DNA from: an uncultured delta proteobacterium
GTDB taxonomy: Bacteria > Myxococcota_A > Polyangia > Haliangiales > Haliangiaceae
Length of the DNA stretch: 64,000 nucleotides
Assembly: GCA_963772655.1 (NCBI GenBank)
Contig: CAVYYE010000003.1
Location: 2,673,341 to 2,737,340 of the forward strand
Reading direction: 5' to 3'
Both the position numbers and the translations under genes were made by a program. The notes beneath the pieces were generated by a model. The model was not told the origin of the DNA. It did not search any database and saw nothing but the letters and a program-made list of their open reading frames with translations. Shown here in pieces: positions 2,830 through 54,364 of this stretch. How positions within the stretch are numbered: position 1 is the first letter of the stretch; the number at the start of each line of letters is the position of its first letter.

Positions 2830-3609
2830 TCAGGCGTCGGCGAGCGGCGTGTCTCGAATGTGCGCGATCACGGTGCCGTGGTCGCTGGTACCGAAGTCGC
2901 GGTACGCGGCACACACACAGGTGCCGTCGATCAGCTCGCGACTCGCGATCACGTAGTCGAGCCGCCACCCGATGTTGCGCTGGCGCATGTTCCGCCATGG
3001 CGCCCACCACGTGAACAACCGATCGTTATCGGGGTCGACCTCGCGATGGAGATCGACGAGCCCGTGCGACAGGAACTGCTCGAACAGCGTCCGCTCCTCG
3101 ACGCTCTGCCCGATCATGTCCTTGCGTAGCATCGGGTGGACGTCGATCGGGAGCCGCGCGATGTTGAAGTCGCCGCACAGCACGAGGTACCTGCCGGCCT
3201 CGCGGAGCTCCGCCGCCCACAGCACGAGCTCCTTCCAGAACTCGATCTTCGCCGCGTAGTCCTTGCCGCCGTTCGGTCCGTACACCGTGCCGTAGACGAC
3301 GTTGTCGATCTCGGCGACAGCGATCCGGGTCTCGATGTCGAACCGCGGATGCGTGAACTCCGGCGGCGTGTCGCCGAACGTCTTCACGCGCAGCATCAGC
3401 GCGACGCCCGAGTAACCGGGATGCCCGTGCCAGTGGCAGTGGTAGCCGGGGACCTCGACGATCGGTTCCGGCAGCTGGTGGAGTGCGGCCTTGGTCTCCT
3501 GCAGGCACACCACGTCGGGCTCCTCGCGATCGATCCACGACAGCACCTCCGACGACCGCTTGCGGATGCCGTTGACGTTCCAGGTCCCGAGCTTCACCCT
3601 CGACCACAT
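2830..3609 (-). CDS. xthA: exodeoxyribonuclease III (AP endonuclease, ExoIII/Xth family)
   Basis: The N-terminus is MWSRVKLGTWNVNGIRKR, and the protein carries QETK, the C-terminal SDH motif and WR...DY. It is 259 aa. The ATG is placed at 3609-3607 after trimming the Arg-rich upstream extension of the 465-aa ORF. Confidence 0.9.
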   Translation of the reverse strand: MWSRVKLGTWNVNGIRKRSSEVLSWIDREEPDVVCLQETKAALHQLPEPIVEVPGYHCHWHGHPGYSGVALMLRVKTFGDTPPEFTHPRFDIETRIAVAEIDNVVYGTVYGPNGGKDYAAKIEFWKELVLWAAELREAGRYLVLCGDFNIARLPIDVHPMLRKDMIGQSVEERTLFEQFLSHGLVDLHREVDPDNDRLFTWWAPWRNMRQRNIGWRLDYVIASRELIDGTCVCAAYRDFGTSDHGTVIAHIRDTPLADA

Positions 3610-14296: not shown

Positions 14297-15016
14297 TCAT
14301 TCCCGTCGCGTGATCGCCTGCTTCGCACTGGCGAACACCACATCGAGCATGTCCTCGGTCAGCCGTCCGGTGAACGTGTTCTGCTGGCTGACGTGGTAGC
14401 TGCCGAATAGCGCCCAATCGCCGATCGTCGCGGTCGCGCCGTGGCCGAACTTGGGCTTCGGTTTGGGGATCGCGCGCTCGAGGGCCGCGGCCGCGAGCAA
14501 GAGCCCATCCCACGCGAATCCACCCAGCGCCACGATCGCCCGCAGGTCGGTCAGGAGCGCGAGCTCGCGGGCGAGCAACTTCACGCAGCGATCGCGCTCG
14601 GTCGGAGTCGGTTTGTTGTCGGGCGGAGCGCATCGCACGACACAGGTCACGTAGGCATCGGTCAGCGCGAGTCCGTCGTCGGCGCTCGTCGAGGTCGGTT
14701 GGTTGGCGAACCCGGCGCGATGGAGCGCGGCGTACAGCCAGTCTCCCGATCGATCACCGGTGAACACGCGCCCGGTGCGATTGGCGCCGTGCGCAGCCGG
14801 TGCGAGTCCGAGCACGAGCAATCGCGCGTCGCGATCCCCGAACCCCGGAACTGCACGACCCCAGTAGGTCTGCCCCTGGAACCGCTTCGGTGGATCGGCA
14901 GCGGCGCGCTCGCGACACCGCACCAGACGCCGACACCTGCGACAGCCGATGATGTCGGCGTTCAGCAACTCGAACGTCGGACTGACACGCGTCGCCGGTT
15001 TCGCCTTGCTCGCCAT
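14297..15016 (-). CDS. uracil-DNA glycosylase superfamily protein, family 4/5 type (4Fe-4S), motif A = GLAPAAHG (UdgB-like)
   Basis: Cys ligands are present (CRRCRRL...C). Motif A is LGLAPAAHGANRTGRVFTG. A motif-B His is present near the C-terminus (GSYHVSQQN). The start was chosen at MASKAK, because the upstream Arg-rich extension is unlikely to be coding. Confidence 0.7.
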   Translation of the reverse strand: MASKAKPATRVSPTFELLNADIIGCRRCRRLVRCRERAAADPPKRFQGQTYWGRAVPGFGDRDARLLVLGLAPAAHGANRTGRVFTGDRSGDWLYAALHRAGFANQPTSTSADDGLALTDAYVTCVVRCAPPDNKPTPTERDRCVKLLARELALLTDLRAIVALGGFAWDGLLLAAAALERAIPKPKPKFGHGATATIGDWALFGSYHVSQQNTFTGRLTEDMLDVVFASAKQAITRRE

Positions 15017-15146
15017 GCTTGCCGTCATCGTCGCACGCGATGCCCGCGATACGCGCGACATGCGGCGCGACGCGACACCGGCGCGTGTCATGCGGCTTCA
15101 CCGACGCTGCGTTTCTTTCGCGCGCCCTGCCCTCTATCACGAGATC

Positions 15147-18100
15147 GTGCGTTGGGTTCATCTTGTTCGTCTCCTCGTCGCGTGCGTGCTGTTGACCTCG
15201 ACGGTTCCGGCACGAGCGCAATCACCGACCACCGGCGCGATCGCCGGGCGCGTCACCGATGCCATCTCCAAGGAGCCGCTGATCGCCGTCGCGGTCACCG
15301 TCGTACGCGAGGGTGGCGGCGAGCCGCAGACGGTGCTCACCGACGAGAACGGCGTCTACAAGATCACCGAGCTGCTACCCGGGTTCTATACGGTGACGTT
15401 CGAGGTCGACGCGCTGTCGAAGACCAAGCGCACGCACGTCCAGGTCGACGCCAACGGCGTCGCCTCCGTGTACCAGGCGGTCAAGCACGGCGACATCATC
15501 GAGGTCGTCGGCAAGGCACCGCAAATCCGGCAGAGCACGCTCGAGATCAGTCGCCGCATGGACCACGACTTCCTGACCAAGATGCCGCTGCCGACGCGGA
15601 ACGCCACCGACGCCGCAGGTGCGGCGGCCGGCGCCCATAACGATGGGGTCGGCATCGCGTTCTCGGGTTCGACCGCGCTCGAGAACCGGTTTTTGGTCGA
15701 CGGCATCGACATCACCGGACTCACCCTCGGCGACGTCGGCACGCCGGTCCTCAACGACTTCGTCGAACAGATCGAGGTGCTGTCGGGTGGGTTCAACGCC
15801 GAGTGGGGGCGCGCCACGGGCGGCATCGTCAACATCGTCACCAAGTCGGGCACCAACGAGGTTCACGGCAGCGTGTTCGGCACGCTGTCGCCCGGAGTCC
15901 TGACCGCGAACCGGCAGACGACACCGACCAACGCGGCATCGATCGACCTCGTCGGCGACCGCGCCTACAACGCCGACTTCGGCGCCGAGGTCGGTGGTCC
16001 GCTCATCAAGGACCGGCTGTGGTTCTACGCCGGTCTCGCCCCGCAGCTATCGCGTACCGACCTCACGCGGATCACCAAGCGCCAGACCGACTGCCGGCAA
16101 CTGCTGCCGAGCGGCGAGCTGTCGGGGTGCGATCCACGGCTGGTCAGCCAGGGCGGGTTCGCCGACGGCGCTCCCGACGTCGATCCGTCCACCGGGTTCT
16201 TCATCACCGACGAGATCGATCGCGATGTGCGCCAGGCGACCTCGGAGCAGCTGTCGTCGATCGCCAAGCTCAACCTCGCGGTGACGCCGCGCCACCAGGC
16301 GCAGATCAGCCTGATCGCCGTGCCGGGCCGCTCGCGCACGCCGGGCCTGTTCGGGTTGCCGTCGACCGGCTCGCGCACCAACACGCTATCGCTCGACGGA
16401 GCCGCGCGCTGGACCTCGAAGGTCGACGACGACCGCCTCGAGCTCGAGGGCGTGCTCGCGTGGCACCACTCGTCGCTGCGCACCGGTGCACTCGACCCGA
16501 CGCTCGACGCGCAACCGCGCCAGATCTTGCTGAACGGTAGCCTCGGCACGTGGTCCGGGTTCGGCGGCGAGTCGGCGCGCACGGTGGCCGGCTGCACCGA
16601 TGGCGGTCCCGGCTCGAGCGACCCGTACTTCGGCATCGTCAACTGTCCGATGGACACCGTGTCGTACGCGATCGGAGGCCCCGGCCCGATCGCGGCGGAT
16701 CGAGAGGATCGAATCACCGCACGGTTCGGCGTCACGCGCCGCGGTCATCTCGCGGGCTCGCACGAGATCAAGGCCGGCATCGACATCGAGAACAACTCCA
16801 AGGTCACCGCGCGCCTGTTCTCGGGTGGCGCGCTGATCCAGAACTTCGTCGACGCCGGCGTCGTCGACGTCACGCGCTGGGTCGGACTCGCGCCGCTCGG
16901 CGACAAGGACCCGCGCTACGACCACGTGTGCAAGACGCCCGATCCCGAGGCCACCGGGGGGCTCGGCACCGGCAGCAAGACGTTCGCGTGCGAGTACCTG
17001 CCCGGCACGGTGGGGGCCCCCGGCACCGAGGTCACCGGCCAGACCATCGACTGGTCGACCTACCTGCGCGACTCGTGGCAGCCGTGGCCCAACCTGACCC
17101 TCAACGCCGGCGTGCGCTACGAGGAGCAGCAACTGCGCTACGCCGAGTCGCTCCGCGGCAAGCTCGATCCGTTGACCGGCGAGCGCCACGACACCACCGC
17201 GCTCGACCTCACGAACAACTGGGCACCGCGGCTCGGCGTGGCCTGGGATCCCACCGAGGAAGGTCGCGCGAAGCTATGGCTGTCGTACGGCCGGTTCTTC
17301 GAGGCGATCCCGATGGACATCAACGATCGCTCGTTCGGCGGCGAGGTGTCGTACCAGCAGTCGTTTCAGACCGCGGGTACCGACGTGTGCGGTTCCGTCG
17401 ATCCCCGGATCGGCGCCGCCGATGGCGTCGGGTGTTTGACACCGAACGGCGCGCCCGCGGTCGAGCAGTTGATCGGTTCGTCGGGCGTGCTGGTCGCTCC
17501 GGGGACCAAGTCGCAGTACCTCGACGAGGTCGTCGCCGGCGCCCAGTTCCAGCTCGCCGACGACCTGATGATGGGGATCACCTACCAGCACCGCTGGCTC
17601 GGTCGCGTGATCGAGGACGTGTCGACCGATGGCGCGCAGACCTACGTGATCGCCAACCCGGGCGAGTGGTCGGCCGACGAAGAGGCCCGCCTGGAGCAGC
17701 GGATCGCGGCGGCCGACGATCCGGTGGTGCGCGGGCGGCTCGAGGATCAGCTGGCGATGTTCCAGGGCATTCGCGCCTTCGATCGGCCATCGCGCACGTA
17801 CCGATCGATCGCCCTCGAGCTGTCCAAGCGGCTATCGCACGACCTGTTCGTGCGCGCGTCGTACACGTACTCGCGCACCCGGGGCAATTTTCCCGGCAGC
17901 GTGTCCTACGACAACGGCCAGCGCGATCCCAACATCTCGTCGCAGTACGATCTGATCGAGCTACTCGCCAATCGCTACGGTCCACTTCCGCAGGATCGCC
18001 CGCACTCGCTCAAGGTCGACGCGTTCTACACCGCGCATCCCAGCGATCGCGATCTGCTCACGATCGGTGCGCGCGTACGTGCGGTGTCGGGCATTCCGCG

Positions 18101-18530
18101 CAACGCGCTCGGCGCTCACTATCTGTACGGCCCGAACGAATCGTTCCTGCTACCGCGCGGTGAGCTCGGCCGAACCGAGCTCGAGCGCACGTTCGATCTC
18201 AAGCTGTCGTACGGACGCAAGCTAAACGACAGCAAGATGACTGCCGAGATCTTCCTCGACGTGTTCAACGTATTGAATCATCAGGGCACGTTCGACGTCG
18301 ATTCGACGTACGCGCCGTCGGTCAAGCGTGGAATCGGCGGTGCGGGTGGGACGCTCAACAACGTCAACCCGGTTTCTGGAGGAACGTACGAGGATCTGAT
18401 CTTCGCGAAAGCGATCGACGCAAATGGTGCCGAGACTTCCGCACCGACTGCGCGCAATCCAAACTTTCAGCGCACGATTTCTCGATATGCTCCGGCCTCG
18501 GCACAAGTGGGTTTTCGGTTGACGTTCTAG
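15147..18530 (+). CDS. Oar-like TonB-dependent outer-membrane protein (carboxypeptidase-regulatory-like domain + plug + beta-barrel)
   Basis: The GTG start gives the signal peptide MRWVHLVRLLVACVLLTSTVPARA-QS. The CarboxypepD_reg motif reads GRVTD..EPL..V.VTVV....QTVLTDENGVYKITELLPGFYTVTF. The plug reads FLVDGIDITG...IEVLSGGFNAEWGRATGGIVNIVTK. The protein is about 1127 aa and ends with an aromatic residue. Confidence 0.85.
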   Translation: MRWVHLVRLLVACVLLTSTVPARAQSPTTGAIAGRVTDAISKEPLIAVAVTVVREGGGEPQTVLTDENGVYKITELLPGFYTVTFEVDALSKTKRTHVQVDANGVASVYQAVKHGDIIEVVGKAPQIRQSTLEISRRMDHDFLTKMPLPTRNATDAAGAAAGAHNDGVGIAFSGSTALENRFLVDGIDITGLTLGDVGTPVLNDFVEQIEVLSGGFNAEWGRATGGIVNIVTKSGTNEVHGSVFGTLSPGVLTANRQTTPTNAASIDLVGDRAYNADFGAEVGGPLIKDRLWFYAGLAPQLSRTDLTRITKRQTDCRQLLPSGELSGCDPRLVSQGGFADGAPDVDPSTGFFITDEIDRDVRQATSEQLSSIAKLNLAVTPRHQAQISLIAVPGRSRTPGLFGLPSTGSRTNTLSLDGAARWTSKVDDDRLELEGVLAWHHSSLRTGALDPTLDAQPRQILLNGSLGTWSGFGGESARTVAGCTDGGPGSSDPYFGIVNCPMDTVSYAIGGPGPIAADREDRITARFGVTRRGHLAGSHEIKAGIDIENNSKVTARLFSGGALIQNFVDAGVVDVTRWVGLAPLGDKDPRYDHVCKTPDPEATGGLGTGSKTFACEYLPGTVGAPGTEVTGQTIDWSTYLRDSWQPWPNLTLNAGVRYEEQQLRYAESLRGKLDPLTGERHDTTALDLTNNWAPRLGVAWDPTEEGRAKLWLSYGRFFEAIPMDINDRSFGGEVSYQQSFQTAGTDVCGSVDPRIGAADGVGCLTPNGAPAVEQLIGSSGVLVAPGTKSQYLDEVVAGAQFQLADDLMMGITYQHRWLGRVIEDVSTDGAQTYVIANPGEWSADEEARLEQRIAAADDPVVRGRLEDQLAMFQGIRAFDRPSRTYRSIALELSKRLSHDLFVRASYTYSRTRGNFPGSVSYDNGQRDPNISSQYDLIELLANRYGPLPQDRPHSLKVDAFYTAHPSDRDLLTIGARVRAVSGIPRNALGAHYLYGPNESFLLPRGELGRTELERTFDLKLSYGRKLNDSKMTAEIFLDVFNVLNHQGTFDVDSTYAPSVKRGIGGAGGTLNNVNPVSGGTYEDLIFAKAIDANGAETSAPTARNPNFQRTISRYAPASAQVGFRLTF

Positions 18531-21342: not shown

Positions 21343-21675
21343 CTACTTGAAGAACGGGTAGTAGACGCCGTCGATCGTGTAGCCGGAGTAACCGCCGATC
21401 GTGTTGGGGGCGTACGCGGGCGCGGGCGCGGGCGCGCTACCGCCGCCACCTCCACCCATCATCATCATGAACATCATCATGGTCGTCGGGTCCATGCCCT
21501 GCTGGCGGTTGGTCTGCAGGCTCTGGAGCGAGTCGATCACGCCGCTCAGCGCCTGCGTGATCTCGGCGTTGGAGCCGCTCGACGACACGCCACCGCTGAC
21601 CTGAGAGAGGTCGGTCGGGTCGATGGTCTGGAGGGTTTCGGGCCGGGCGGGTTGGGTGGGCTTGGCTTTGGGCAT
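21343..21675 (-). CDS. small secreted peptide precursor 1: double-glycine-type leader (…TLQTIDPTDLSQVSGG) + Met/Gly-rich core (MMMFMMMMGGGGGG)
   Basis: The ATG at 21675 has an AAGGA RBS 8 nt upstream. The protein is 110 aa. The leader is conserved with three other ORFs in the window. The gene lies immediately downstream of the VIT1-like transporter gene on the same strand. Confidence 0.6.
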   Translation of the reverse strand: MPKAKPTQPARPETLQTIDPTDLSQVSGGVSSSGSNAEITQALSGVIDSLQSLQTNRQQGMDPTTMMMFMMMMGGGGGGSAPAPAPAYAPNTIGGYSGYTIDGVYYPFFK

Positions 21676-21822
21676 GGCCGGTGTCCTTCGGTGGTGACAC
21701 CCCTGTCTCCAGCAGTCGACGTGCCACCGTTCGAAGGTCGCGATCTCGCGAACATCGACGACCATCGAGGGACGGGCCCCGGCGAGCGAAGCGCCGGTCC
21801 GTATACCGCCGGACTCGATCGA

Positions 21823-36076: not shown

Positions 36077-36197
36077 CGATCAGCGCGGTGCGTCGATCTC
36101 TGATCCACCGAACCCGTTGTGATTCGTGGTCACAGGTCCGTTCACGATCGGGAGACCGGCTCCAACGATCCCGCGAATCTAGGCACTGGCACGAAGG

Positions 36198-36878
36198 ATG
36201 CTGCATAGTAAATACATGCGAAACCTGCTCGTCCTGATGGTGCTCTCCATCGCCGCTGGCGGTTGTTACGCCACCACGACCACCGGCTACACCCCCGCCT
36301 ACGTCGGCCCGGCGGTGTCCGTCTCCGCCACGACCGTCGCCCCCGATCTCGTCTACGTCAGCCCTGGCGTTCAGGTGATCGCGGACTACGACGAACCGAT
36401 CTTCTACTCCGACGGCTTCTACTGGAGGGAGTACGGCGGCACCTGGTACCACTCGCGTTACTACGATCGCGGTTGGGCCTACGCCGCGCCGCCGCGTGCG
36501 ATCGTCTCGATCGGCAACCGGCGCTCGTACGTGCACTACCGCCCGCGCGGGTACACGCCCCGCGGCAGCTACGTGCGCGACCACCGCGGATACAACCGGT
36601 CGCGTCCGATCGTTCGCGACAACCGCGGCTACAACCGGTCGCGTCCGATCGTTCGCGACAATCGCGGCTACAACCGGTCGCGTCCGATCGTTCGCGACAA
36701 CCGCAACTACAACCGGTCGCGTCCCGTGGTTCGCGACAACCGTGGCTACAACCGATCGCGCCCGGTCGTTCGCGACAACCGCTCGACCCGGTCGCGTCCC
36801 GTGGTTCGCGACAACCGCAGCAACCGGTCGCGTCCCGTGCGCGACAACCGTAGCAACCGTCGCGATCATCGACGCTAG
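36198..36878 (+). CDS. lipoprotein with C-terminal tandem 13-aa repeats (RSRPIVRDNRGYN x ~7)
   Basis: The lipobox is MRNLLVLMVLSIAAGGC. The N-domain is Tyr/Trp-rich (YWREYGGTWYHSRYYDRGWAY). An alternative start lies at 36216. Confidence 0.6.
   Translation: MLHSKYMRNLLVLMVLSIAAGGCYATTTTGYTPAYVGPAVSVSATTVAPDLVYVSPGVQVIADYDEPIFYSDGFYWREYGGTWYHSRYYDRGWAYAAPPRAIVSIGNRRSYVHYRPRGYTPRGSYVRDHRGYNRSRPIVRDNRGYNRSRPIVRDNRGYNRSRPIVRDNRNYNRSRPVVRDNRGYNRSRPVVRDNRSTRSRPVVRDNRSNRSRPVRDNRSNRRDHRR
36575..36860 (+). repeat. 39-nt in-frame tandem repeat x ~7 (ggctacaaccggtcgcgtccgatcgttcgcgacaaccgc and variants)
   Basis: The repeat is seen directly. Confidence 0.85.
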
Positions 36879-38753: not shown

Positions 38754-39731
38754 CTACACGCGCAGGACGATCTTGCCGAATCCGGCGTTCGTCGCCATGC
38801 GCTGGTGCGCCGCGGCGGCCTGGTCGAGCGGCAGCACGGTATCGATGACCGGCGCGAGCTTGCCGCGCGTGAACAGCGGGACCACCTGAGCCTCGAACGC
38901 GCGCATCGCCGCGAGCTTCTCCTCGAGCGGACGCGACCGCAGCACCGTGCCGGTGATCGTGATCCGCTTGCGCAGGAGCAATCCGAGATCGAGCTCGGTC
39001 TTGGTACCGGCCATCAGCCCGATCAGCACGATCCGGCCGAGCGTCTTGACCGCGCGCAGGTCCTCGTCGACGTACTTGCCGCCGACCAGCTCGAGTACGG
39101 CATCGGCTCCAGCGGGGACCAGCTTCTTGACCGCCGCCGCGAAGCTCCCGTCGAGAACCGTGATGCCCTCGTCCATGCCGAGCTGCTTGGCCCGTTCGAG
39201 CTTGTCGGCGGTGCGAGCGGTCCCGATCGTGTACGCGCCGAGCGCGCGCCCGAGCTGCACCGCCGCCGTTCCGACACCGCTGCCCGCAGCGTGGACGATC
39301 ACGCTCTCGCCCGACCGCAGGTTCGCACGCGTCACCATCGCGTCGTGTGCGGTCACGAACGCCTCGGGCACCGCCGCGGCGTGTTCGAACGACATCCCGT
39401 CGGGAATCTTGGCGAGCGCACGCTCGTGTGCGGTCGCTGCCTCGGCATAGCCACCGCCGCCGAGCAGACCGAACACGCGGTCGCCGATCGCCAGACGTTC
39501 GACGCCCGGTCCGAGTGCGTCGACCTCGCCCGCGATCTCGAGCCCCGGGATGTCGGGCGGAGCATCGGGAGGCGCGGGGTACGCACCCATCCGTTGCAAC
39601 ACATCGGCGCGGTTGATCGCCGTCGCGCGGATCCGCACCCGAACCTCGCCGCGGCTGGGCTCGGGTAACGGTCGCTCGACGACCTCGAGGACCTCGGGTC
39701 CTCCGAACGTGGGAATCGCGACGGCTTTCAC
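38754..39731 (-). CDS. NADPH:quinone oxidoreductase / zeta-crystallin-like medium-chain dehydrogenase
   Basis: The protein starts MKAVAIPTFGGPEVLEVVERPLPEP. The Rossmann motif is GSGVGTAAVQLGRALGA. It is 325 aa. Confidence 0.85.
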   Translation of the reverse strand: MKAVAIPTFGGPEVLEVVERPLPEPSRGEVRVRIRATAINRADVLQRMGAYPAPPDAPPDIPGLEIAGEVDALGPGVERLAIGDRVFGLLGGGGYAEAATAHERALAKIPDGMSFEHAAAVPEAFVTAHDAMVTRANLRSGESVIVHAAGSGVGTAAVQLGRALGAYTIGTARTADKLERAKQLGMDEGITVLDGSFAAAVKKLVPAGADAVLELVGGKYVDEDLRAVKTLGRIVLIGLMAGTKTELDLGLLLRKRITITGTVLRSRPLEEKLAAMRAFEAQVVPLFTRGKLAPVIDTVLPLDQAAAAHQRMATNAGFGKIVLRV

Positions 39732-39785
39732 GCGGCGACTATCCCACGCGCGCCTGGCGAGCGTGGGATGCGCGCCCCGCGACTG

Positions 39786-40028
39786 CTACCACCAGCGACC
39801 GCGACGGCCGCTGACGTAGACGACGTTCGCCGCCTGGCTACGCTGGAGCGCGATGCCCATGAGAAGGATCATCTGCGTGCTCGAGAACCCCTTGGTCTGA
39901 GCCGAGATGTCCTTGATCGACGACGCCAGCTTGCTGATGTCGTCGAGGAACGGGTCACCTGCGTGCTTGGTTCCGCCGGTGACGGTCGAAAGAACGGTGG
40001 GATCGATGGACAGGATCTTGTTCGACAT
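39786..40028 (-). CDS. small secreted peptide precursor 2: double-glycine-type leader (MSNKILSIDPTVLSTVTGG) + amphipathic/hydrophobic cationic core ending RRGRWW (class II bacteriocin-like)
   Basis: The ATG has an AGGAAG RBS. The composition is Lys/Ile/Ser-rich and atypical for non-coding high-GC frames. The leader is conserved with ORFs at 21343, 42535 and 53721. Confidence 0.6.
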   Translation of the reverse strand: MSNKILSIDPTVLSTVTGGTKHAGDPFLDDISKLASSIKDISAQTKGFSSTQMILLMGIALQRSQAANVVYVSGRRGRWW

Positions 40029-40137
40029 GGGCTGGGCTTCCTGGTGATGGCAGGTGGTGCCGATCGTTCGAGCAGCCCGCGTGCCATCGCTAAGTCGTTG
40101 ATCCCAGTCGCGCGATCCAACCGAACGAATTCATTCG

Positions 40138-40176
40138 AGGTGACACCTCGCCAACCGAGGGTGACACCCGGGGGGC
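40138..40176. promoter_or_regulatory. two small palindromes GAGGTGaCACCTC and GGGTGaCACCC ~110-135 nt upstream of peptide ORF 2; same GGTGnCACC core occurs 15 nt upstream of peptide ORF 1 (21690-21698)
   Basis: The palindromes are seen directly. They may be an operator for a dimeric regulator. Confidence 0.3.
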
Positions 40177-40189
40177 CTTGCGCGGGGGG

Positions 40190-41074
40190 TCACTGGACCA
40201 GGAACGGCTGGTCGACGGTCGCCTTCACCGGCCGGCCGTCGTCGTCGAGGGCCGGCCGGTACCGGAACCGGAAGATCTGGTCCGCCGCCACGTTGTCGCG
40301 CGGACCACCGACGCCCTGTACGAGGTGGGCGCCGACCACGTAACCGTCGGTGTCGACGGTGACCCGTGCGACGAACAGCGGGTCACCGTCGCCGACCTCG
40401 CGCTGGCGCACCGGGTAGATCAGCTTCGGGGGGCGCGCCTTCGACGGTGGTGGTGGCGGCGGCAGGTGACTCGACAGTAGCTCGTCACCACCACCCGCCC
40501 CGTCCCCGAGCCCCGTCCCGCACGCCAGCCGCCCGATCCCGCGACACCGACCCGTGCCGTTGCCGGTGCCTCGCCCGTCACCCGTGCCCGCGCCGGTTCC
40601 CGTCGCACCCGCGCCGCCGCCGCGCTCGCCGGGACCTGACTCGATCTCGACCGTGCCGAGCTCCGAGGCGATGGTCCGGATCTCGGACGTATCGGTCCGG
40701 ATGCCGGAAGGCTTGGTCCGCGCACCGGACATCTCGGTCCGTGCACCAGACGTCTCGGTCCGAGTCTCGGTCCGAGTCTCGGACGATGCCGAAGTCGCCA
40801 ACGCGTCGGCGCCAATGTTGCCGTCGGCGCGGGGCGCGTCCCGCGCGGCGGGCTCGAGCGACGACGAAACGTCGACGACCTCGACGATCTCGACGCCCGG
40901 TGCCATCCCGAGGCCGTGTCCCGTCGACGGCGAGCGCCGCGCGAGCATCACCAGCGCCGCGCCGAGGATCGCGTGCAGTACCAGGGATCCGAGGAGCGCG
41001 CATCGTCGGAGATAGTCACGCGCCGGGCCCTCGGGGCGGGCGTGACGACGCTCCGGGTGTTGCCCCACATCCAC
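40190..41074 (-). CDS. TonB-family energy transducer (N-terminal TM anchor, Pro/Gly/Thr-rich periodic linker, C-terminal TonB domain)
   Basis: The anchor is ALLGSLVLHAILGAALVML. The linker has TETRTETSGARTEMSGARTKPSGIRTDTSEIRT repeats. The C-terminus reads PKLIYPVRQRE...GYVVGAHLVQGVGGP..D.AA...FRFRYRPA (TonB_C-like). Confidence 0.7.
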   Translation of the reverse strand: MDVGQHPERRHARPEGPARDYLRRCALLGSLVLHAILGAALVMLARRSPSTGHGLGMAPGVEIVEVVDVSSSLEPAARDAPRADGNIGADALATSASSETRTETRTETSGARTEMSGARTKPSGIRTDTSEIRTIASELGTVEIESGPGERGGGAGATGTGAGTGDGRGTGNGTGRCRGIGRLACGTGLGDGAGGGDELLSSHLPPPPPPSKARPPKLIYPVRQREVGDGDPLFVARVTVDTDGYVVGAHLVQGVGGPRDNVAADQIFRFRYRPALDDDGRPVKATVDQPFLVQ

Positions 41075-41159
41075 CCGACGATCATGCGCGAAACCCGGTG
41101 CCGTGCGGGATCACACGCGATCACCGGCGCGAGCTGCAGGTCTCTCGCGGTGTCGCGGT

Positions 41160-41567
41160 CTATCCGTGGTCCTGGCACCGCAACGGTCGATCGCGATTCG
41201 GACGGCATTGCCACTGCCAGCACGGGTCGTACTTACCCGGGCCAATGCCGTCGACCCGCTCCGCGTGAAATCGCTCTCCGTCGAGCCAGCCCTGAACCAC
41301 GACGTCGACACCCTCGCACACCGTGTCCGGAAGCACACCGTCGTAGAGAACCTCGACGGGATCGTCGATCTTCGTGGGTGCCCACGGGTCGACGAGCGTC
41401 AACGCGTAGCCATCGGAGGTGTGGTGCAGCGAGCCGCGCTCGATGGTGCCGGCACGCCACTCGAGATCCCGGTGTACCAGGCCTCGAATCGCCATCGCGA
41501 TCGCCAGCGTCGTGATCACGATCAGACTCGCCGCGAGCCAGGTGCGAACACGATCGAGGACCAGCAT
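41160..41567 (-). CDS. CcmE-like OB-fold protein (cytochrome c maturation heme-chaperone family) lacking the canonical heme-binding His
   Basis: There is an N-terminal TM anchor. VEVLYDGVLPDTVCEGVDVVVQGWLDGERFHAERV aligns with E. coli CcmE [34 protein letters not shown]. The C-terminus is GKYDPCWQWQC instead of LAKHDENY. Confidence 0.5.
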   Translation of the reverse strand: MLVLDRVRTWLAASLIVITTLAIAMAIRGLVHRDLEWRAGTIERGSLHHTSDGYALTLVDPWAPTKIDDPVEVLYDGVLPDTVCEGVDVVVQGWLDGERFHAERVDGIGPGKYDPCWQWQCRPNRDRPLRCQDHG

Positions 41568-41788
41568 TTCGATCGCGCAACCGCGAGAGCCGCACCGCTA
41601 TTCCGTGCAGCAACTGCAGGGTCGGTGGTCGCGGATGAAACTGGTGGCTGGTCGAGATCTGGCTACTCCACTGGCCAGACGTCCGAAATGTGGACACTTT
41701 CTGGAGCTTGGTCATTTCAACCATTGAAGATCATGGCGATATTATCGGCCGGACCAATGGTCCACCGCTTGCACCGCAGTGCGTCATC

Positions 41789-42403
41789 ATGCGTGCTCTA
41801 GCTTTGATTCCTCTCCTCACCGCGTGCGGCGCCGACCTCATGGAGCCACCGCCGGCGTCCGCGCGGGCCTATCTCGAGGCCGGTGCCGACGTCGAGGTGT
41901 CACCGGCCGACAGCGCCGGCACCATCGGCGCCGCTCACCACACCCCCGATGGCTGGGTGTCCGGCCTGACGGATCTGACGATCGACGCGGGAACGATCGC
42001 GCTCTCGACCACGAGCGATGGCGCGCTCGAGATCGACGACGTCTCGCTCGACCTCGGATCGATCGCGATCCCCGAGACCGTGCTCGGCTACGACGTCGCG
42101 CTCACCGACGTGCACGTCGGTCTGAAGGCCCCGGTCGCGATGGTTCCGGAGTGGGACGGCGACAACGCCGCGCACGCCCGGGCCGAGCTCGAGCTCGCGA
42201 TCACGTGGTCGCTGACCAACCACGGCACGACGTCGCCGCTCGGGTCACCGAAGCTGCCGTCGCTCCCGGTCGAGCTCGACATCACCGGGAGCGGAGCCGG
42301 CGTGAACGTCGAGATGCGGGTGACCGCACCGGGCACGTTGTGGACGTGGGCGAACCTGCTCGAGCTGCAGGATCTGACGCTGATCGTTGGCGGTCGCGGT
42401 TAG
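41789..42403 (+). CDS. lipoprotein, hypothetical
   Basis: The lipobox is MRALALIPLLTACG. The body is Asp/Thr/Leu-rich and about 204 aa. The start was chosen at an internal Met of the longer ORF. Confidence 0.5.
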   Translation: MRALALIPLLTACGADLMEPPPASARAYLEAGADVEVSPADSAGTIGAAHHTPDGWVSGLTDLTIDAGTIALSTTSDGALEIDDVSLDLGSIAIPETVLGYDVALTDVHVGLKAPVAMVPEWDGDNAAHARAELELAITWSLTNHGTTSPLGSPKLPSLPVELDITGSGAGVNVEMRVTAPGTLWTWANLLELQDLTLIVGGRG

Positions 42404-42525
42404 GCGATCGTCGCTCGTCGATCGTCGCTCGTCGCTCGTCGCTCGTCGCTCGTTGATCGTCGCTCGTCGCTCGTTGATCGTCGATCGTCGATCGTCGCTC
42501 GTCGCTCGTCGCCGATGGTCGCGTT
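42404..42525. repeat. intergenic heptanucleotide microsatellite (CGTCGCT / CGTTGAT / CGTCGAT) ~16 copies
   Basis: The repeat is seen directly. It lies immediately 3' of the peptide ORF 3 stop on the minus strand. Confidence 0.85.
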
Positions 42526-42534
42526 GACAGTCGT

Positions 42535-42729
42535 CTACTGGCCGTAGCCGGTCGTGCTGCCGTAGCCGGAGATCTGGACGTTGGTCGTGATCTCCGGACC
42601 GGCCGACGGCGGCGGAGCCGGCGGGGCCGCCGGCGGCGGGCAGCTCTTCTTCTTGTGACAACCGCCGGAGACGCCGGCGAGGTCGGAGAGATCGATCGAC
42701 TCGAGGAGGGGCTGGGTGGTGGTGGACAT
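42535..42729 (-). CDS. small secreted peptide precursor 3: double-glycine-type leader (MSTTTQPLLESIDLSDLAGVSGG) + Cys/Lys/Pro-rich core (CHKKKSCPPPAAPPAPPPSAG…GYGSTTGYGQ)
   Basis: The ATG at 42729 has a GAGAGG RBS. The protein is 64 aa. The leader is conserved with the other three peptide ORFs. Confidence 0.55.
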   Translation of the reverse strand: MSTTTQPLLESIDLSDLAGVSGGCHKKKSCPPPAAPPAPPPSAGPEITTNVQISGYGSTTGYGQ

Positions 42730-42885
42730 GTCGCCTCTCGGTGCAGCGCATATGCCACGGGTTCCCGCCGAAACTCCGCGCAGTTGGCCAGACGGCATCG
42801 TCTCCCGTGGGATGCAATCGATGATCGCGCGACGCAGGCCAACGCTGGTCGAGCGTGGGACAATCACCCGGTGATCGCGCCGAAC

Positions 42886-53720: not shown

Positions 53721-53948
53721 TCACTTGTTGGCGACCAGCGGCACCAACGGCGATCCCGGGAACGTCGGCAACGGGTTCGGGAACGTCGGCGACGGGTTCG
53801 GGAACGTCGGCGACGGGGTCGGGAACGGGTTGAACGGTCCGGTGCATCCGCCACCGTTCGGCTGCTTCGTCACTCCGCCGGTGACCAGCGAGAGCTCGTC
53901 GAGCTCGACGACGTTATCGGTGGCGGTGACGTTCTCGGTATCGCGCAT
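53721..53948 (-). CDS. small secreted peptide precursor 4: double-glycine-type leader (…NVVELDELSLVTGG) + Pro-rich core with (PTFPNPS)3 repeat
   Basis: The ATG at 53948 has an AGGAGAG RBS 6 nt upstream. The protein is 75 aa. The leader is conserved with the other peptide ORFs. Confidence 0.55.
   Translation of the reverse strand: MRDTENVTATDNVVELDELSLVTGGVTKQPNGGGCTGPFNPFPTPSPTFPNPSPTFPNPLPTFPGSPLVPLVANK
53752..53822 (-). repeat. 21-nt in-frame tandem repeat x3 (gggaacgtcggcgacgggttc) encoding PTFPNP(S/L)
   Basis: The repeat is seen directly. Confidence 0.8.
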
Positions 53949-54364
53949 GATGTCTCTCCTGTTTGGATTCGCGGCCGGTTCGGCTGCAACCTCCTCGAGA
54001 GCACTCGACGTGCCAGCGTCGCTCGCACGCTCGCGATCAAAAGTGTTCGCGAGTTGCGGATCGACCACGCGCTTCGCGACCTCGCGGTGCGTGTCCCGCG
54101 GTCGGCGATCGGCATCCCGTGGTTGGCGTCGTGATCGTCGAGGAGCCGGCGGCGCGCTTGATGATCGAGACGGCGATCGACATGACGCTGACGATAGGAG
54201 CAGCTCGCGTGCCACGCGATCGCGGCCGCATGCACGCGACTTGTGCGCCGTCGCGAGCGTTCCGCGGGTAACACCGTGCCGTCTCTGAGCATCAGTCACT
54301 GGTCGAACCGCCTCGGCGTTTCATGGTTGCGCGAATTGTGCAGCGCGGGCACGATGCCGCCGTG

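What the first reader, a model, noticed from the sequence alone, without database searches (positions are those of the whole stretch)
39786..41567. Bacteriocin-like GG-leader peptide 2 is clustered with a TonB-family protein and a CcmE-like protein
Peptide 2 has a 19-aa leader, an amphipathic Lys/Ser/Asp helix, a hydrophobic MILLMGIAL stretch and a cationic Trp-rich C-terminus. It looks most like a genuine membrane-active class II bacteriocin or microcin. It lies 160 bp downstream of a TonB-family gene on the same strand and 54 bp upstream of a quinone oxidoreductase gene, and two GGTGnCACC-type palindromes sit in its upstream region. TonB is the energizer hijacked by microcins for import, so the arrangement is suggestive, although it may be coincidental.
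Basis: partly seen in the sequence, partly recalled or inferred. Interest (0 to 1): 0.55.

Follow-up and report, generated by a model that had tools for sequence, protein, structure and literature searches.

The report
Sigma-54-controlled exported double-glycine peptide gene
The small gene is real: it encodes a secretion-type "double-glycine leader" peptide from an unannotated family found in one group of soil myxobacteria, and it has its own conserved sigma-54 promoter, while the suggested link to the neighbouring TonB and CcmE-like genes has no functional support.

Summary
The 80-codon ORF at 39786..40028 (-) is a genuine gene. Its GC3 is 0.86, it has at least 251 homologues, and it sits at the same locus in 11 related Haliangiales/Kofleriaceae contigs. 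No Pfam or NCBIfam model covers it. The most conserved residues are Gly-1, Gly-2, Val-4, Leu-7 and Ile-12 of the leader. These are the residues a C39 peptidase domain grips, so cleavage after G19 and export by a peptidase-containing ABC transporter is the best reading.

It is followed by an IHF-like site and a near-consensus sigma-54 -24/-12 element, which is conserved in 11 of 12 loci. The peptide is therefore its own activator-dependent transcription unit.

The only invariant neighbour is the downstream quinone oxidoreductase (12/12 loci), which seems to have its own leaderless-type promoter. The TonB-like gene lies directly upstream in 8 of 11 relatives. The CcmE-like gene is present in none.

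No immunity gene, transporter or activator lies nearby, so a bacteriocin role is possible but unproven. All four double-glycine peptide genes in the window carry sigma-54-type elements.

The parts
39786..40028 (-). Precursor gene of the double-glycine-leader peptide (80 codons plus stop). The leader is codons 1-19 (40028..39972), the predicted mature 61-aa peptide is 39971..39789, and the stop is 39788..39786.
   Evidence: ORF. GC3 0.86. Family of at least 251 proteins. L13, V16, G18 and G19 are invariant and I8 is at least 90% conserved in 82 sequences. AF2 predicts helices at 10-16, 26-44 and 50-66.
40071..40086 (-). Sigma-54-type -24/-12 promoter element TGGCACGCGGGCTGCT. The inferred transcription start is near 40060.
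   Evidence: The window holds 5 matches to TGGCAC-N6-TGC against 0.48 expected. GTGGCACG-N5-TGCTC is conserved in 11 of 12 orthologous loci, 33-42 nt before the ATG.
40139..40168 (-). It starts 21 nt after the TonB-like stop codon.
   Evidence: one composite match against 0.02 expected. The block TGTCACC..GGTCGGCGA..TG(T/A)(C/A)ACC is conserved in the 12-locus alignment. In the related loci the composite occurs only upstream of the peptide.
40091..40102 (-). ATCAACGACTTA, a match to the IHF core consensus (W)ATCAA-N4-TTR, directly upstream of the -24 element.
   Evidence: Conserved block aTCa.c.a.TT in the 12-locus alignment. The IHF assignment is my inference from the consensus.
40037..40042 (-). 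Shine-Dalgarno-like AGGAAG inside a conserved 5'UTR (CACC...ACAAAGGA).
   Evidence: Sequence. Conserved block.
39734..39776 (-). GC-rich hairpin between the peptide stop codon and the oxidoreductase start (core arms ATCCCACGC / GCGTGGGAT). Probably the terminator or 3' end of the peptide transcript.
   Evidence: Fold of -31.4 kcal/mol, z = -2.3 against shuffles. A hairpin of unrelated sequence sits at the same place in most related loci.
39738..39743 (-). -10-like hexamer GATAGT, 6 nt before the GTG start of the oxidoreductase gene, with no Shine-Dalgarno sequence. This is the geometry of a promoter for a leaderless mRNA.
   Evidence: An NANNNT hexamer ends 6-7 nt before the oxidoreductase start in 12 of 12 loci. 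The function is inferred.
38754..39731 (-). PIG3-family NAD(P)H quinone oxidoreductase. It is the only invariant neighbour of the peptide gene.
   Evidence: TIGR02824, 362.9 bits against a cut-off of 296.8. It lies directly downstream of the peptide in 12 of 12 loci, with gaps of 19-54 nt.
40190..41074 (-). TonB-family protein (the true start is probably downstream of 41074). It is a frequent but not obligatory upstream neighbour.
   Evidence: TonB_C: 20.2 bits for the whole protein and 23.6 bits for the C-terminal domain alone, against a 24.6 cut-off. Eight of 9 orthologues match, best E 5.4e-8. The top PDB hits are TonB. It has the N-terminal helix motif S-x3-H and a PPPPPP spacer. ExbB/ExbD-like genes lie next to it in L006, L008 and L009.
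41160..41567 (-). CcmE-domain protein. It is specific to this lineage and is not part of the conserved unit.
   Evidence: PF03100, 32.9 bits. Extending the ungapped alignment to E. coli CcmE puts Gly at the position of the haem-binding His. No homologue was found in related loci.

Best explanation
This is a self-contained, activator-dependent transcription unit encoding a secreted peptide.

**Proposed mechanism**
1. An enhancer-binding protein, encoded elsewhere, binds the two TGTCACC sites just downstream of the TonB-like gene.
2. Helped by a bend at the IHF-like site, it activates sigma-54 RNA polymerase at TGGCACG-N4-CTGCT.
3. The roughly 30-nt-leader mRNA is translated into an 80-aa precursor and probably ends at the GC hairpin.
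4. The leader helix (Val-4, Leu-7, Ile-12, Gly-Gly) is recognised by the C39 peptidase domain of a peptidase-containing ABC transporter, also encoded elsewhere.
5. The transporter cuts after G19 and exports a 61-aa, 6.7-kDa, net-cationic two-helix peptide. This peptide has a conserved VVYV strand and an Arg/Trp tail.

**Shown:** the gene and its family, the conserved leader positions, the conserved promoter and activator-site blocks, and the synteny.

**Inferred:** sigma-54 dependence in vivo, cleavage and export, and the terminator.

**Extracellular role (not resolved).** My rough estimates are:
- 0.40: a self-directed role (signal, or surface/matrix assembly, as for cyanobacterial EbfG peptides). 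This fits a single-copy, vertically inherited core gene that lacks an immunity gene.
- 0.35: an antagonistic peptide aimed at prey or competitors that needs no dedicated immunity.
- 0.25: something else.

I see no evidence that the TonB-like and CcmE-like neighbours work with the peptide. The downstream oxidoreductase appears to be a separate leaderless transcription unit whose promoter is wedged against the end of the peptide gene.
For: - **Gene reality and family:**
- **Leader:** L13 (-7), V16 (-4), G18 and G19 are invariant, and I8 (-12) is at least 90% conserved in 82 sequences. [quoted passage not shown] AF2 predicts a leader helix at residues 10-16.
- **Promoter:** the sigma-54 pattern is enriched about 10-fold in the window. 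The element is conserved in 11 of 12 loci at a fixed distance, although the flanking DNA diverges. The activator-site and IHF-like blocks are conserved with it.
- **The promoter travels with the peptide:** it stays with the peptide when the upstream gene is a histidine kinase (L006) or GroES (L012).
- **Composite activator site:** it is unique to this gene.
- **Hairpin:**
- **Oxidoreductase -10 geometry:** 12 of 12 loci.
- **Transporter precedent in the clade:** a LanT/PCAT homologue next to a HlyD-type gene is listed for Haliangium ochraceum, the same family (PMC3951391).
- **Paralogues:** pepA is a distant paralogue with the same promoter and 5'UTR box. All four GG-peptide genes in the window carry sigma-54-type elements.
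Against: - No peptidase-containing ABC transporter, membrane-fusion protein or sigma-54 activator gene is in the 64-kb window or in about 128 kb of related loci (gene tables).
- No expression or cleavage data exist.
- NCBIfam's bacteriocin-type signal models did not hit the leader.
- The structure model has only moderate confidence (pLDDT 69) and has no structural neighbour.
- L009 has TGAA in place of the -12 TGC.
- The hairpin lacks a U-tract and its z-score is modest.
- The invariant adjacency to the oxidoreductase could mean co-function rather than promoter overlap.
Confidence: 0.6

Rival explanations
1. One reading: a membrane-active class II bacteriocin or microcin whose clustering with TonB (and CcmE) is functional, for example TonB-linked uptake or immunity.
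For: The precursor has a double-glycine leader. The mature peptide is under 10 kDa and cationic, with an amphipathic and a hydrophobic helix. The peptide evolves fast: 50-60% identity against 71-84% for the oxidoreductase, and dN/dS of 0.5-1.0 in distant pairs. The TonB-like gene lies directly upstream in 8 of 11 relatives.
Against: Verified class II microcins have a small membrane immunity protein encoded immediately adjacent (PMC12219008). None of the 12 loci has one; the flanks are a 161-nt promoter region and a gap of 19-54 nt. The window has no transporter. The gene is single-copy at a fixed chromosomal locus across a family- to order-level clade, unlike accessory bacteriocin islands. The TonB link is broken in L006, L011 and L012. 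The CcmE-like gene is never syntenic. The hydrophobic run is at most 10 residues. There is no similarity to any bacteriocin family in Pfam or NCBIfam.
Confidence: 0.12
2. An antagonistic secreted peptide (bacteriocin-like or anti-prey) with no functional tie to TonB. It needs no dedicated immunity because the producer lacks the target.
For: The evidence is the same peptide features as above. In addition, regulated (sigma-54/activator) expression would suit induction on prey contact or starvation. The Arg/Trp C-terminus is typical of membrane-interface binding (my own knowledge).
Against: Specific positions are conserved (T45, G47, L59, A60, V69, V70, Y71, W80). This points to a defined fold or partner rather than generic membrane activity. 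Helix 1 is acidic to neutral, not cationic (sequence). Verified class II microcins have adjacent immunity genes (PMC12219008), and here none is present.
Confidence: 0.3
3. A RiPP precursor whose partner is the invariant downstream oxidoreductase, by analogy with LanJA-type zinc-ADH-family reductases that reduce dehydroalanine (my own knowledge). The two genes would be co-transcribed from the sigma-54 promoter.
For: Peptide-to-oxidoreductase adjacency holds in 12 of 12 loci with gaps of only 19-54 nt. The core contains a conserved Ser/Thr-rich segment, KTSGFSS.
Against: The enzyme is a full-length, above-cut-off PIG3-type quinone oxidoreductase and is far more conserved than the peptide. No dehydratase, cyclase or other modification gene appears in any locus. 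A conserved -10-like hexamer 6-7 nt before its start codon and the lack of a Shine-Dalgarno sequence indicate its own leaderless transcript. A hairpin separates the two genes.
Confidence: 0.05
4. A small cytoplasmic or membrane-associated protein that is not exported. The GG would be incidental.
For: No transporter was found nearby. The leader did not hit curated signal models.
Against: The most conserved positions of the whole protein are exactly GG, -4, -7 and -12. Three other small ORFs in the window share the motif (I/L)D..xL..V(S/T)GG while having unrelated cores. The segment after GG is a variable Gly/Ser-rich linker of 2-20 residues, as expected just after a cleavage site.
Confidence: 0.07

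Closest known systems
Class II microcins (e.g. MccV/colicin V) and other double-glycine-leader bacteriocins
   Same: An N-terminal leader of 15-19 aa ending in GG, with hydrophobic residues at -4, -7 and -12. The mature peptide is under 10 kDa and carries no obvious modification. Export is expected through a peptidase-containing ABC transporter, a membrane-fusion protein and an outer-membrane channel (PMC12219008).
   Different: There is no adjacent immunity gene and no nearby transporter. There is no sequence similarity to known families. The gene sits at a core, vertically inherited chromosomal locus and has a sigma-54/activator promoter. The host is Myxococcota rather than Enterobacterales.
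EbfG1-4 / PteB of Synechococcus elongatus (double-glycine-motif small proteins needed for biofilm formation)
   Same: They are small proteins with a microcin-type GG secretion motif and a non-antibiotic, self-directed role. They are exported by a C39-peptidase transporter (PMC4997328). The other GG peptides in this window (pep1, pepA, pepD) share the Pro/Gly/Tyr-rich low-complexity composition of EbfG fragments.
   Different: The ebfG genes are clustered and co-transcribed. Here the GG genes are scattered and each has its own sigma-54 promoter. Peptide 2 has a helical core rather than a low-complexity one. No functional data exist.
ComC-type competence and quorum pheromones of streptococci (my own knowledge)
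   Same: A GG-leader precursor at a conserved chromosomal locus, with rapid sequence divergence between lineages and cleavage and export by a C39-ABC transporter.
   Different: ComC is encoded next to its receptor kinase and regulator, and the mature pheromone is about 17 aa. Here the mature peptide is 56-78 aa, and histidine kinases are neighbours in only some loci (L006, L011, L012).
Classical sigma-54 promoters with an upstream activator sequence and an IHF site (e.g. nifH, glnAp2; my own knowledge)
   Same: GG-N10-GC spacing with TGGCACG-N4-xTGCT. Paired activator sites lie about 55-85 nt upstream of the -24 element. An IHF-consensus-like motif lies in between.
   Different: The activator is unidentified. 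The TGTCACC half-site matches no activator site I can name. The IHF-like site lies unusually close to the -24 element.

Membership tests
Double-glycine-leader peptides (substrates of peptidase-containing ABC transporters) | N-terminal leader of about 15-25 aa ending in GG, GA or GS | tested here: met
   The leader is 19 aa in the window and averages 19.1 aa across the family (range 14-24). G18 and G19 are invariant in 82 sequences.
Double-glycine-leader peptides (substrates of peptidase-containing ABC transporters) | Hydrophobic residues at -4, -7 and -12 that dock into the C39 domain | tested here: met
   V16 (-4) and L13 (-7) are invariant and I8 (-12) is at least 90% conserved. [quoted passage not shown]
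Double-glycine-leader peptides (substrates of peptidase-containing ABC transporters) | A cognate C39-ABC transporter encoded in the genome, often nearby | tested here: not met
   None was found among the window ORFs scanned with Pfam or in the related loci. The rest of the genome is not available. A LanT homologue next to a HlyD-type gene is listed for Haliangium ochraceum (PMC3951391).
Double-glycine-leader peptides (substrates of peptidase-containing ABC transporters) | Cleavage after GG and export demonstrated | not testable with these tools
   This needs mass spectrometry or an in-vitro C39 assay.
Class II microcins | Small membrane immunity protein encoded immediately adjacent | tested here: not met
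   In 12 of 12 loci the flanks are a promoter region or a TonB-like, kinase or GroES gene upstream, and the oxidoreductase 19-54 nt downstream. The criterion comes from PMC12219008.
Class II microcins | Mature peptide of about 5-10 kDa with a double-glycine signal | tested here: met
   61 aa, 6.7 kDa.
Class II microcins | Sequence relationship to a known microcin or bacteriocin family | tested here: not met
   No Pfam or NCBIfam hit at E <= 0.1. No structural neighbour in the PDB.
Class II microcins | Antibacterial activity | not testable with these tools
   This needs a secretion or inhibition assay.
Sigma-54-dependent promoter | -24 GG and -12 GC elements with canonical spacing (TGGCAC-N5-TTGC) | tested here: met
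   TGGCACGCGGGCTGCT at 40071-40086. The window holds 5 matches against 0.48 expected.
Sigma-54-dependent promoter | Conservation of the element at orthologous positions | tested here: met
   Conserved in 11 of 12 loci, 33-42 nt before the ATG.
Sigma-54-dependent promoter | Upstream activator sites about 80-150 nt from the transcription start | tested here: met
   The conserved TGTCACC pair is at 40139-40168. Binding by an activator is inferred.
Sigma-54-dependent promoter | Transcription start and dependence on RpoN and an activator | not testable with these tools
   No transcript data are available, and the window has no Sigma54_activat-domain gene.
TonB family (upstream neighbour) | TonB C-terminal domain | tested here: inconclusive
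   The window protein scores 20.2-23.6 bits against a cut-off of 24.6. Eight of 9 orthologues match TonB_C, best E 5.4e-8. The top three PDB hits are TonB at E 0.15-0.29.
TonB family (upstream neighbour) | N-terminal anchor helix with S-x3-H, a Pro-rich spacer and ExbB/ExbD partners | tested here: met
   GSLVLHAILG and LPPPPPPS are in the sequence. Weak MotA_ExbB genes followed by two small genes lie next to the orthologues in L008 and L009, with a similar trio of unannotated small genes in L006; none is in the window.
CcmE haem chaperone (second neighbour) | CcmE OB-fold domain | tested here: met
   PF03100, 32.9 bits against a cut-off of 24.6.
CcmE haem chaperone (second neighbour) | Haem-binding His in the H-x3-Y motif, and a ccm operon context | tested here: not met
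   Residues 68-105 align to E. coli CcmE 88-126. Extending the alignment without gaps puts G109 at the position of His130 (sequence GIGPGKY). No ccm genes lie nearby.

The most novel reading that the evidence does not exclude
Haliangiales myxobacteria may carry a dispersed regulon of core, vertically inherited double-glycine-leader peptides. At least four lie in this 64-kb window, and two of them are distant paralogues that share promoter and 5'UTR. Each would be switched on through its own sigma-54 activator site and exported by a shared peptidase-containing ABC transporter. In this reading they serve as social or developmental signals, or as matrix or surface building blocks, in a multicellular bacterial lineage rather than as bacteriocins.
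Probability: 0.25. Interest if true: 0.65.

Novelty: new member of a known kind. Interest (0 to 1): 0.42.

Why it matters
Double-glycine-leader peptides are usually read as bacteriocins and found next to their transporter and immunity genes. Here an unannotated family of at least 251 members from uncultured soil myxobacteria shows the same export signal in a different setting. It sits at a fixed core locus, with no immunity or transporter gene nearby, and has a complete, phylogenetically footprinted sigma-54/activator promoter.

If the pattern seen for all four such genes in this window holds genome-wide, it points to regulated peptide secretion as a sizeable, unexplored part of myxobacterial social or predatory biology. 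It also gives concrete handles for experiments: promoter motifs, a cleavage site and a 61-aa product.

The finding also warns against inferring function from adjacency to tonB.

Tried and rejected
- **Pfam and NCBIfam on the peptide:** no hits.
- **Word-indexed protein search:** only one near-identical hit. The family appeared only with exhaustive HMMER.
- **Genome scan with the 19-sequence alignment:** A 7-sequence alignment worked.
- **Foldseek of the AF2 model against the PDB:** nothing below E = 3.9. This is uninformative for a small helical hairpin.
- **Sigma-70 promoter and intrinsic-terminator consensus scans:** none in 39600-41800.
- **P0018:** it looked like the same core fused to a lipoprotein signal, which would have been independent evidence for an extracytoplasmic location. 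Its 510-bp contig changes composition at the junction, and its N-terminal part looks like an efflux-adaptor lipoprotein. I treat it as a chimeric assembly.
- **P0013 (2032 aa) and P0020:** repetitive or partial matches, excluded from the alignments.
- **Shared 9-mer CATCCCACG** between the peptide-2 hairpin and the pep1 activator site: not significant, 3 matches against 1.07 expected.
- **Search for a sigma-54 activator or a C39-ABC transporter in the window:** none among the roughly 49 ORFs scanned.
- **Literature searches** for sigma-54/RpoN together with double-glycine peptides or myxobacteria: no description of such a family.
Full report

The window is 67.6% G+C. The ORF at 39786..40028 (-) encodes MSNKILSIDPTVLSTVTGG-TKHAGDPFLDDISKLASSIKDISAQTKGFSSTQMILLMGIALQRSQAANVVYVSGRRGRWW.
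- Its codon-position G+C is 0.51/0.47/0.86. This is the coding signature of the neighbouring genes. The overlapping 191-codon ORF on the other strand is flat at 0.68/0.62/0.67.
- The gaps are 161 nt to the TonB-like stop (40190) and 54 nt to the oxidoreductase start (39731).
- GGTGTCACC occurs at 40139-40147 and 40160-40168.

**2. A real but unannotated family**

- Pfam and NCBIfam give nothing for the peptide. The word-indexed search finds one 96%-identical protein.
- Exhaustive HMMER against 1.84 billion representatives finds 21. A profile search finds 251 proteins at E <= 0.01. All are labelled "hypothetical". The few with organism names come from Kofleriaceae, Haliangiales or Myxococcota MAGs; Kofleriaceae belongs to Haliangiales, Myxococcota.
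- In an 82-sequence alignment the invariant residues are L13, V16, G18 and G19. Positions M1, I8, T17, L31, T45, G47, L59, A60, V69, V70, Y71 and W80 are at least 90% conserved.
- Counting back from the GG, the conserved leader residues are Val-4, Leu-7 and Ile-12. These are the side chains that fill the hydrophobic pockets of the C39 protease domain LahT, with the leader bound as a helix (PMC6363468). AlphaFold2 on the alignment also predicts a short leader helix at residues 10-16.
- A variable Gly/Ser-rich linker of about 2-20 residues follows the GG, as expected next to a processing site.
- The predicted mature peptides are 56-78 aa with net charge +2 to +6. Their longest uninterrupted hydrophobic run is at most 10 residues, so the "hydrophobic stretch" cannot span a bilayer alone.
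- The window's mature peptide is 61 aa, 6.7 kDa, pI 10.2. Helix 26-44 is amphipathic (moment 0.47).
- The model has moderate confidence (pLDDT 69) and no structural neighbour in the PDB.
- The gene is under purifying selection in the closest pair (dN/dS 0.24). It evolves much faster than its neighbours: 50-60% identity against 71-84% for the oxidoreductase.

**3. What the "palindromes" are**

Read on the coding strand, the 161-nt intergenic region contains, in order:
- the two TGTCACC sites (40168-40139);
- ATCAACGACTTA, which matches the IHF core consensus (40102-40091);
- TGGCACGCGGGCTGCT, a near-perfect sigma-54 -24/-12 element (40086-40071);
- an AGGAAG ribosome-binding site.

TGGCAC-N6-TGC occurs 5 times in the window against 0.48 expected.

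I fetched 11 distinct orthologous loci and aligned the 170 nt upstream of each ATG. Against a diverged background, four blocks stand out:
- TGTCACC..GGTCGGCGA..TG(T/A)(C/A)ACC;
- ATCA.C.A.TT;
- GTGGCACG-N5-TGCTC, intact in 11 of 12 loci (L009 has TGAA at -12);
- CACC..ACAAAGGA just before the ATG.

The composite activator site occurs once in the window (0.02 expected). In the related loci it occurs only upstream of the peptide. In relatives only the half-site is conserved, not the palindrome. This is the standard anatomy of an enhancer-dependent sigma-54 promoter (established knowledge). Its activity is inferred, not shown. The consensus scan found no sigma-70-type promoter or intrinsic terminator.

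**4. Synteny: which neighbours matter**

*Oxidoreductase.* The peptide is followed by the PIG3-type oxidoreductase in 12 of 12 loci, with gaps of 19-54 nt.

*TonB-like gene.*
- It lies directly upstream in 8 of 11 relatives.
- In L006 a KaiC-like ATPase gene and a hybrid histidine kinase gene are inserted between it and the peptide.
- It is absent in L011 (a small Cys-rich lipoprotein gene plus ExbB/ExbD-like genes) and in L012 (GroES/GroEL).
- In each of those three cases the activator site and the sigma-54 promoter stay with the peptide.
- The protein is credibly TonB family. TonB_C is borderline in the window protein but clear in orthologues. TonB tops the PDB hits. It has an S-x3-H anchor and a proline spacer. 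ExbB/ExbD-like genes flank it in relatives.

*CcmE-like gene.* It has a genuine CcmE domain. It is found in none of the 9 loci where the flank can be read. It has Gly at the position of the haem-binding His.

*Wider block.* The M14 peptidase, orf226 and orf348 are also collinear. The TonB adjacency is therefore best explained by inherited gene order.

**5. Why the oxidoreductase is always adjacent**

In all 12 loci an NANNNT hexamer (GATAGT, CATAGT, TAGACT, TACACT, CAGAAT or TAGGCT) ends 6-7 nt before the oxidoreductase start codon, and there is no Shine-Dalgarno sequence. That is the geometry of a promoter producing a leaderless mRNA (inference).

A GC-rich hairpin occupies the rest of the short spacer. 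In the window it folds at -31.4 kcal/mol with z = -2.3. Hairpins of unrelated sequence sit at the same place in most relatives.

My reading is two back-to-back transcription units. The oxidoreductase promoter overlaps the peptide's 3' end, which would resist separation. A RiPP-type partnership (a LanJA-like reductase) is a low-probability alternative. No dehydratase or other tailoring gene occurs in any locus, and the enzyme is a canonical, highly conserved PIG3-type protein.

**6. Bacteriocin or not?**

For:
- the export signal, size and charge;
- a two-helix core and an Arg/Trp tail;
- fast evolution.

Against:
- Verified class II microcins have an adjacent small membrane immunity protein and usually a nearby transporter (PMC12219008). 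None of the 12 loci has room for one.
- No C39-ABC transporter, adaptor or sigma-54 activator is in the window.
- The gene behaves as a single-copy core gene, not an accessory island.

Double-glycine-motif proteins with non-antibiotic roles are documented: EbfG1-4 and PteB in Synechococcus biofilm formation (PMC4997328). A LanT/PCAT homologue next to a HlyD-type gene is listed for Haliangium ochraceum (PMC3951391), so the export machinery plausibly exists in the clade.

I therefore commit to [quoted passage not shown] with confidence about 0.6. Within that, I split the role roughly as 0.40 self-directed, 0.35 antagonistic and 0.25 other.

**7. Wider pattern**

The window holds four small high-GC3 ORFs with the shared leader motif (I/L)D..xL..V(S/T)GG and unrelated cores.
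- pepA, 21343..21675 (-), is a distant paralogue of the peptide-2 family (hhalign 96%, E 2.9e-9). It has the same promoter and the 5'UTR box GTCACCACC..AAGGA.
- pepD, 53721..53948 (-), has TGGCACGTCGAGTGCT 51 nt upstream.
- pep1, 42535..42729 (-), has GTGGCAT-N6-CTGCA 12 nt upstream. This element is conserved in L005 together with its own palindromic upstream site.

This suggests a set of sigma-54-controlled secreted peptides, each with its own activator site. Literature searches found no description of such a family or arrangement.

**8. Verdict**

The double-glycine exported peptide is supported. Synteny with TonB is frequent but not obligatory, and nothing found here supports a functional link. 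CcmE is not linked. A bacteriocin function is unproven.
- It is a new, unannotated member of a known kind (double-glycine-leader exported peptides), with an unusual regulatory and genomic setting.
- Interest is moderate.

Noticed in passing
window 36186-36878 (+): The lipoprotein gene orf226 (MRNLLVLMVLSIAAGGC..., with C-terminal NRGYNRSRPIVRD repeats) has a sigma-54 element, CTGGCACG-N2-GGATGCT, ending only 13 nt before its ATG. The same geometry (12-13 nt) is conserved in L003, L004, L006, L009 and L012, and L003, L004 and L009 also share a separate palindromic upstream site (TGTGA-N7-TCACA). This implies a sigma-54 promoter producing a leaderless or nearly leaderless mRNA, which is unusual.
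   Followed up: partly
window 21343-21726 (-): pepA is a 110-aa GG-leader peptide with a Met-rich stretch (TMMMFMMMM), a Gly run and a Tyr-rich tail. It is a distant paralogue of the peptide-2 family (hhalign 96%). It has its own sigma-54 element (21711-21726) and shares the 5'UTR box GTCACCACC..AAGGA. The third GGTGTCACC copy (21693-21701) is this UTR box, not an activator site.
   Followed up: partly
window 42535-42757 (-); L005 about 2985-3195: pep1 is a 64-aa GG-leader peptide with a Cys/Lys motif and a Pro-rich core. GTGGCAT-N6-CTGCA lies only 12 nt before its ATG (15 nt in L005). A conserved palindrome, GCATCCC..GGGATGC, lies about 70 nt further upstream. It may be another near-leaderless sigma-54 transcript.
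   Followed up: partly
window 53721-54214 (-): pepD is a 75-aa GG-leader peptide with PTFPNP repeats and a sigma-54 element at 54000-54015. A second strong sigma-54 element at 54199-54214 has no convincing high-GC3 ORF after it.
   Followed up: no
window 39729-39743 (-) and 11 related loci: The quinone oxidoreductase gene has a conserved -10-like hexamer 6-7 nt before its start codon and no Shine-Dalgarno sequence in 12 of 12 loci. This suggests a leaderless mRNA.
   Followed up: partly
window 41160-41567 (-): A membrane-anchored CcmE-domain protein with Gly in place of the haem-binding His, outside any ccm operon. It is present only in this lineage among the loci compared.
   Followed up: partly
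window 42405-42520: A run of short GC-rich tandem repeats (units like CGACGAGCGA / CGATCGACGA) lies between the convergent ends of the 237-aa lipoprotein-like gene and pep1.
   Followed up: no
window 14949-18530 (+): A large TonB-dependent receptor with an N-terminal CarboxypepD_reg domain, an architecture resembling Myxococcus Oar (my own recollection). It lies about 21 kb from peptide 2, with no evident link.
   Followed up: no
L006 4286-6862; L011 8167-12339; L012 8273-9610: In some relatives, histidine-kinase or response-regulator genes (and a KaiC-like ATPase gene in L006) sit right next to the peptide-oxidoreductase pair. None carries a sigma-54 activator domain.
   Followed up: no
L014 1-510: A metagenomic contig appears to fuse a lipoprotein/efflux-adaptor-like N-terminus to the peptide-2 core. 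The composition shifts at about position 300, which suggests a chimeric assembly.
   Followed up: yes
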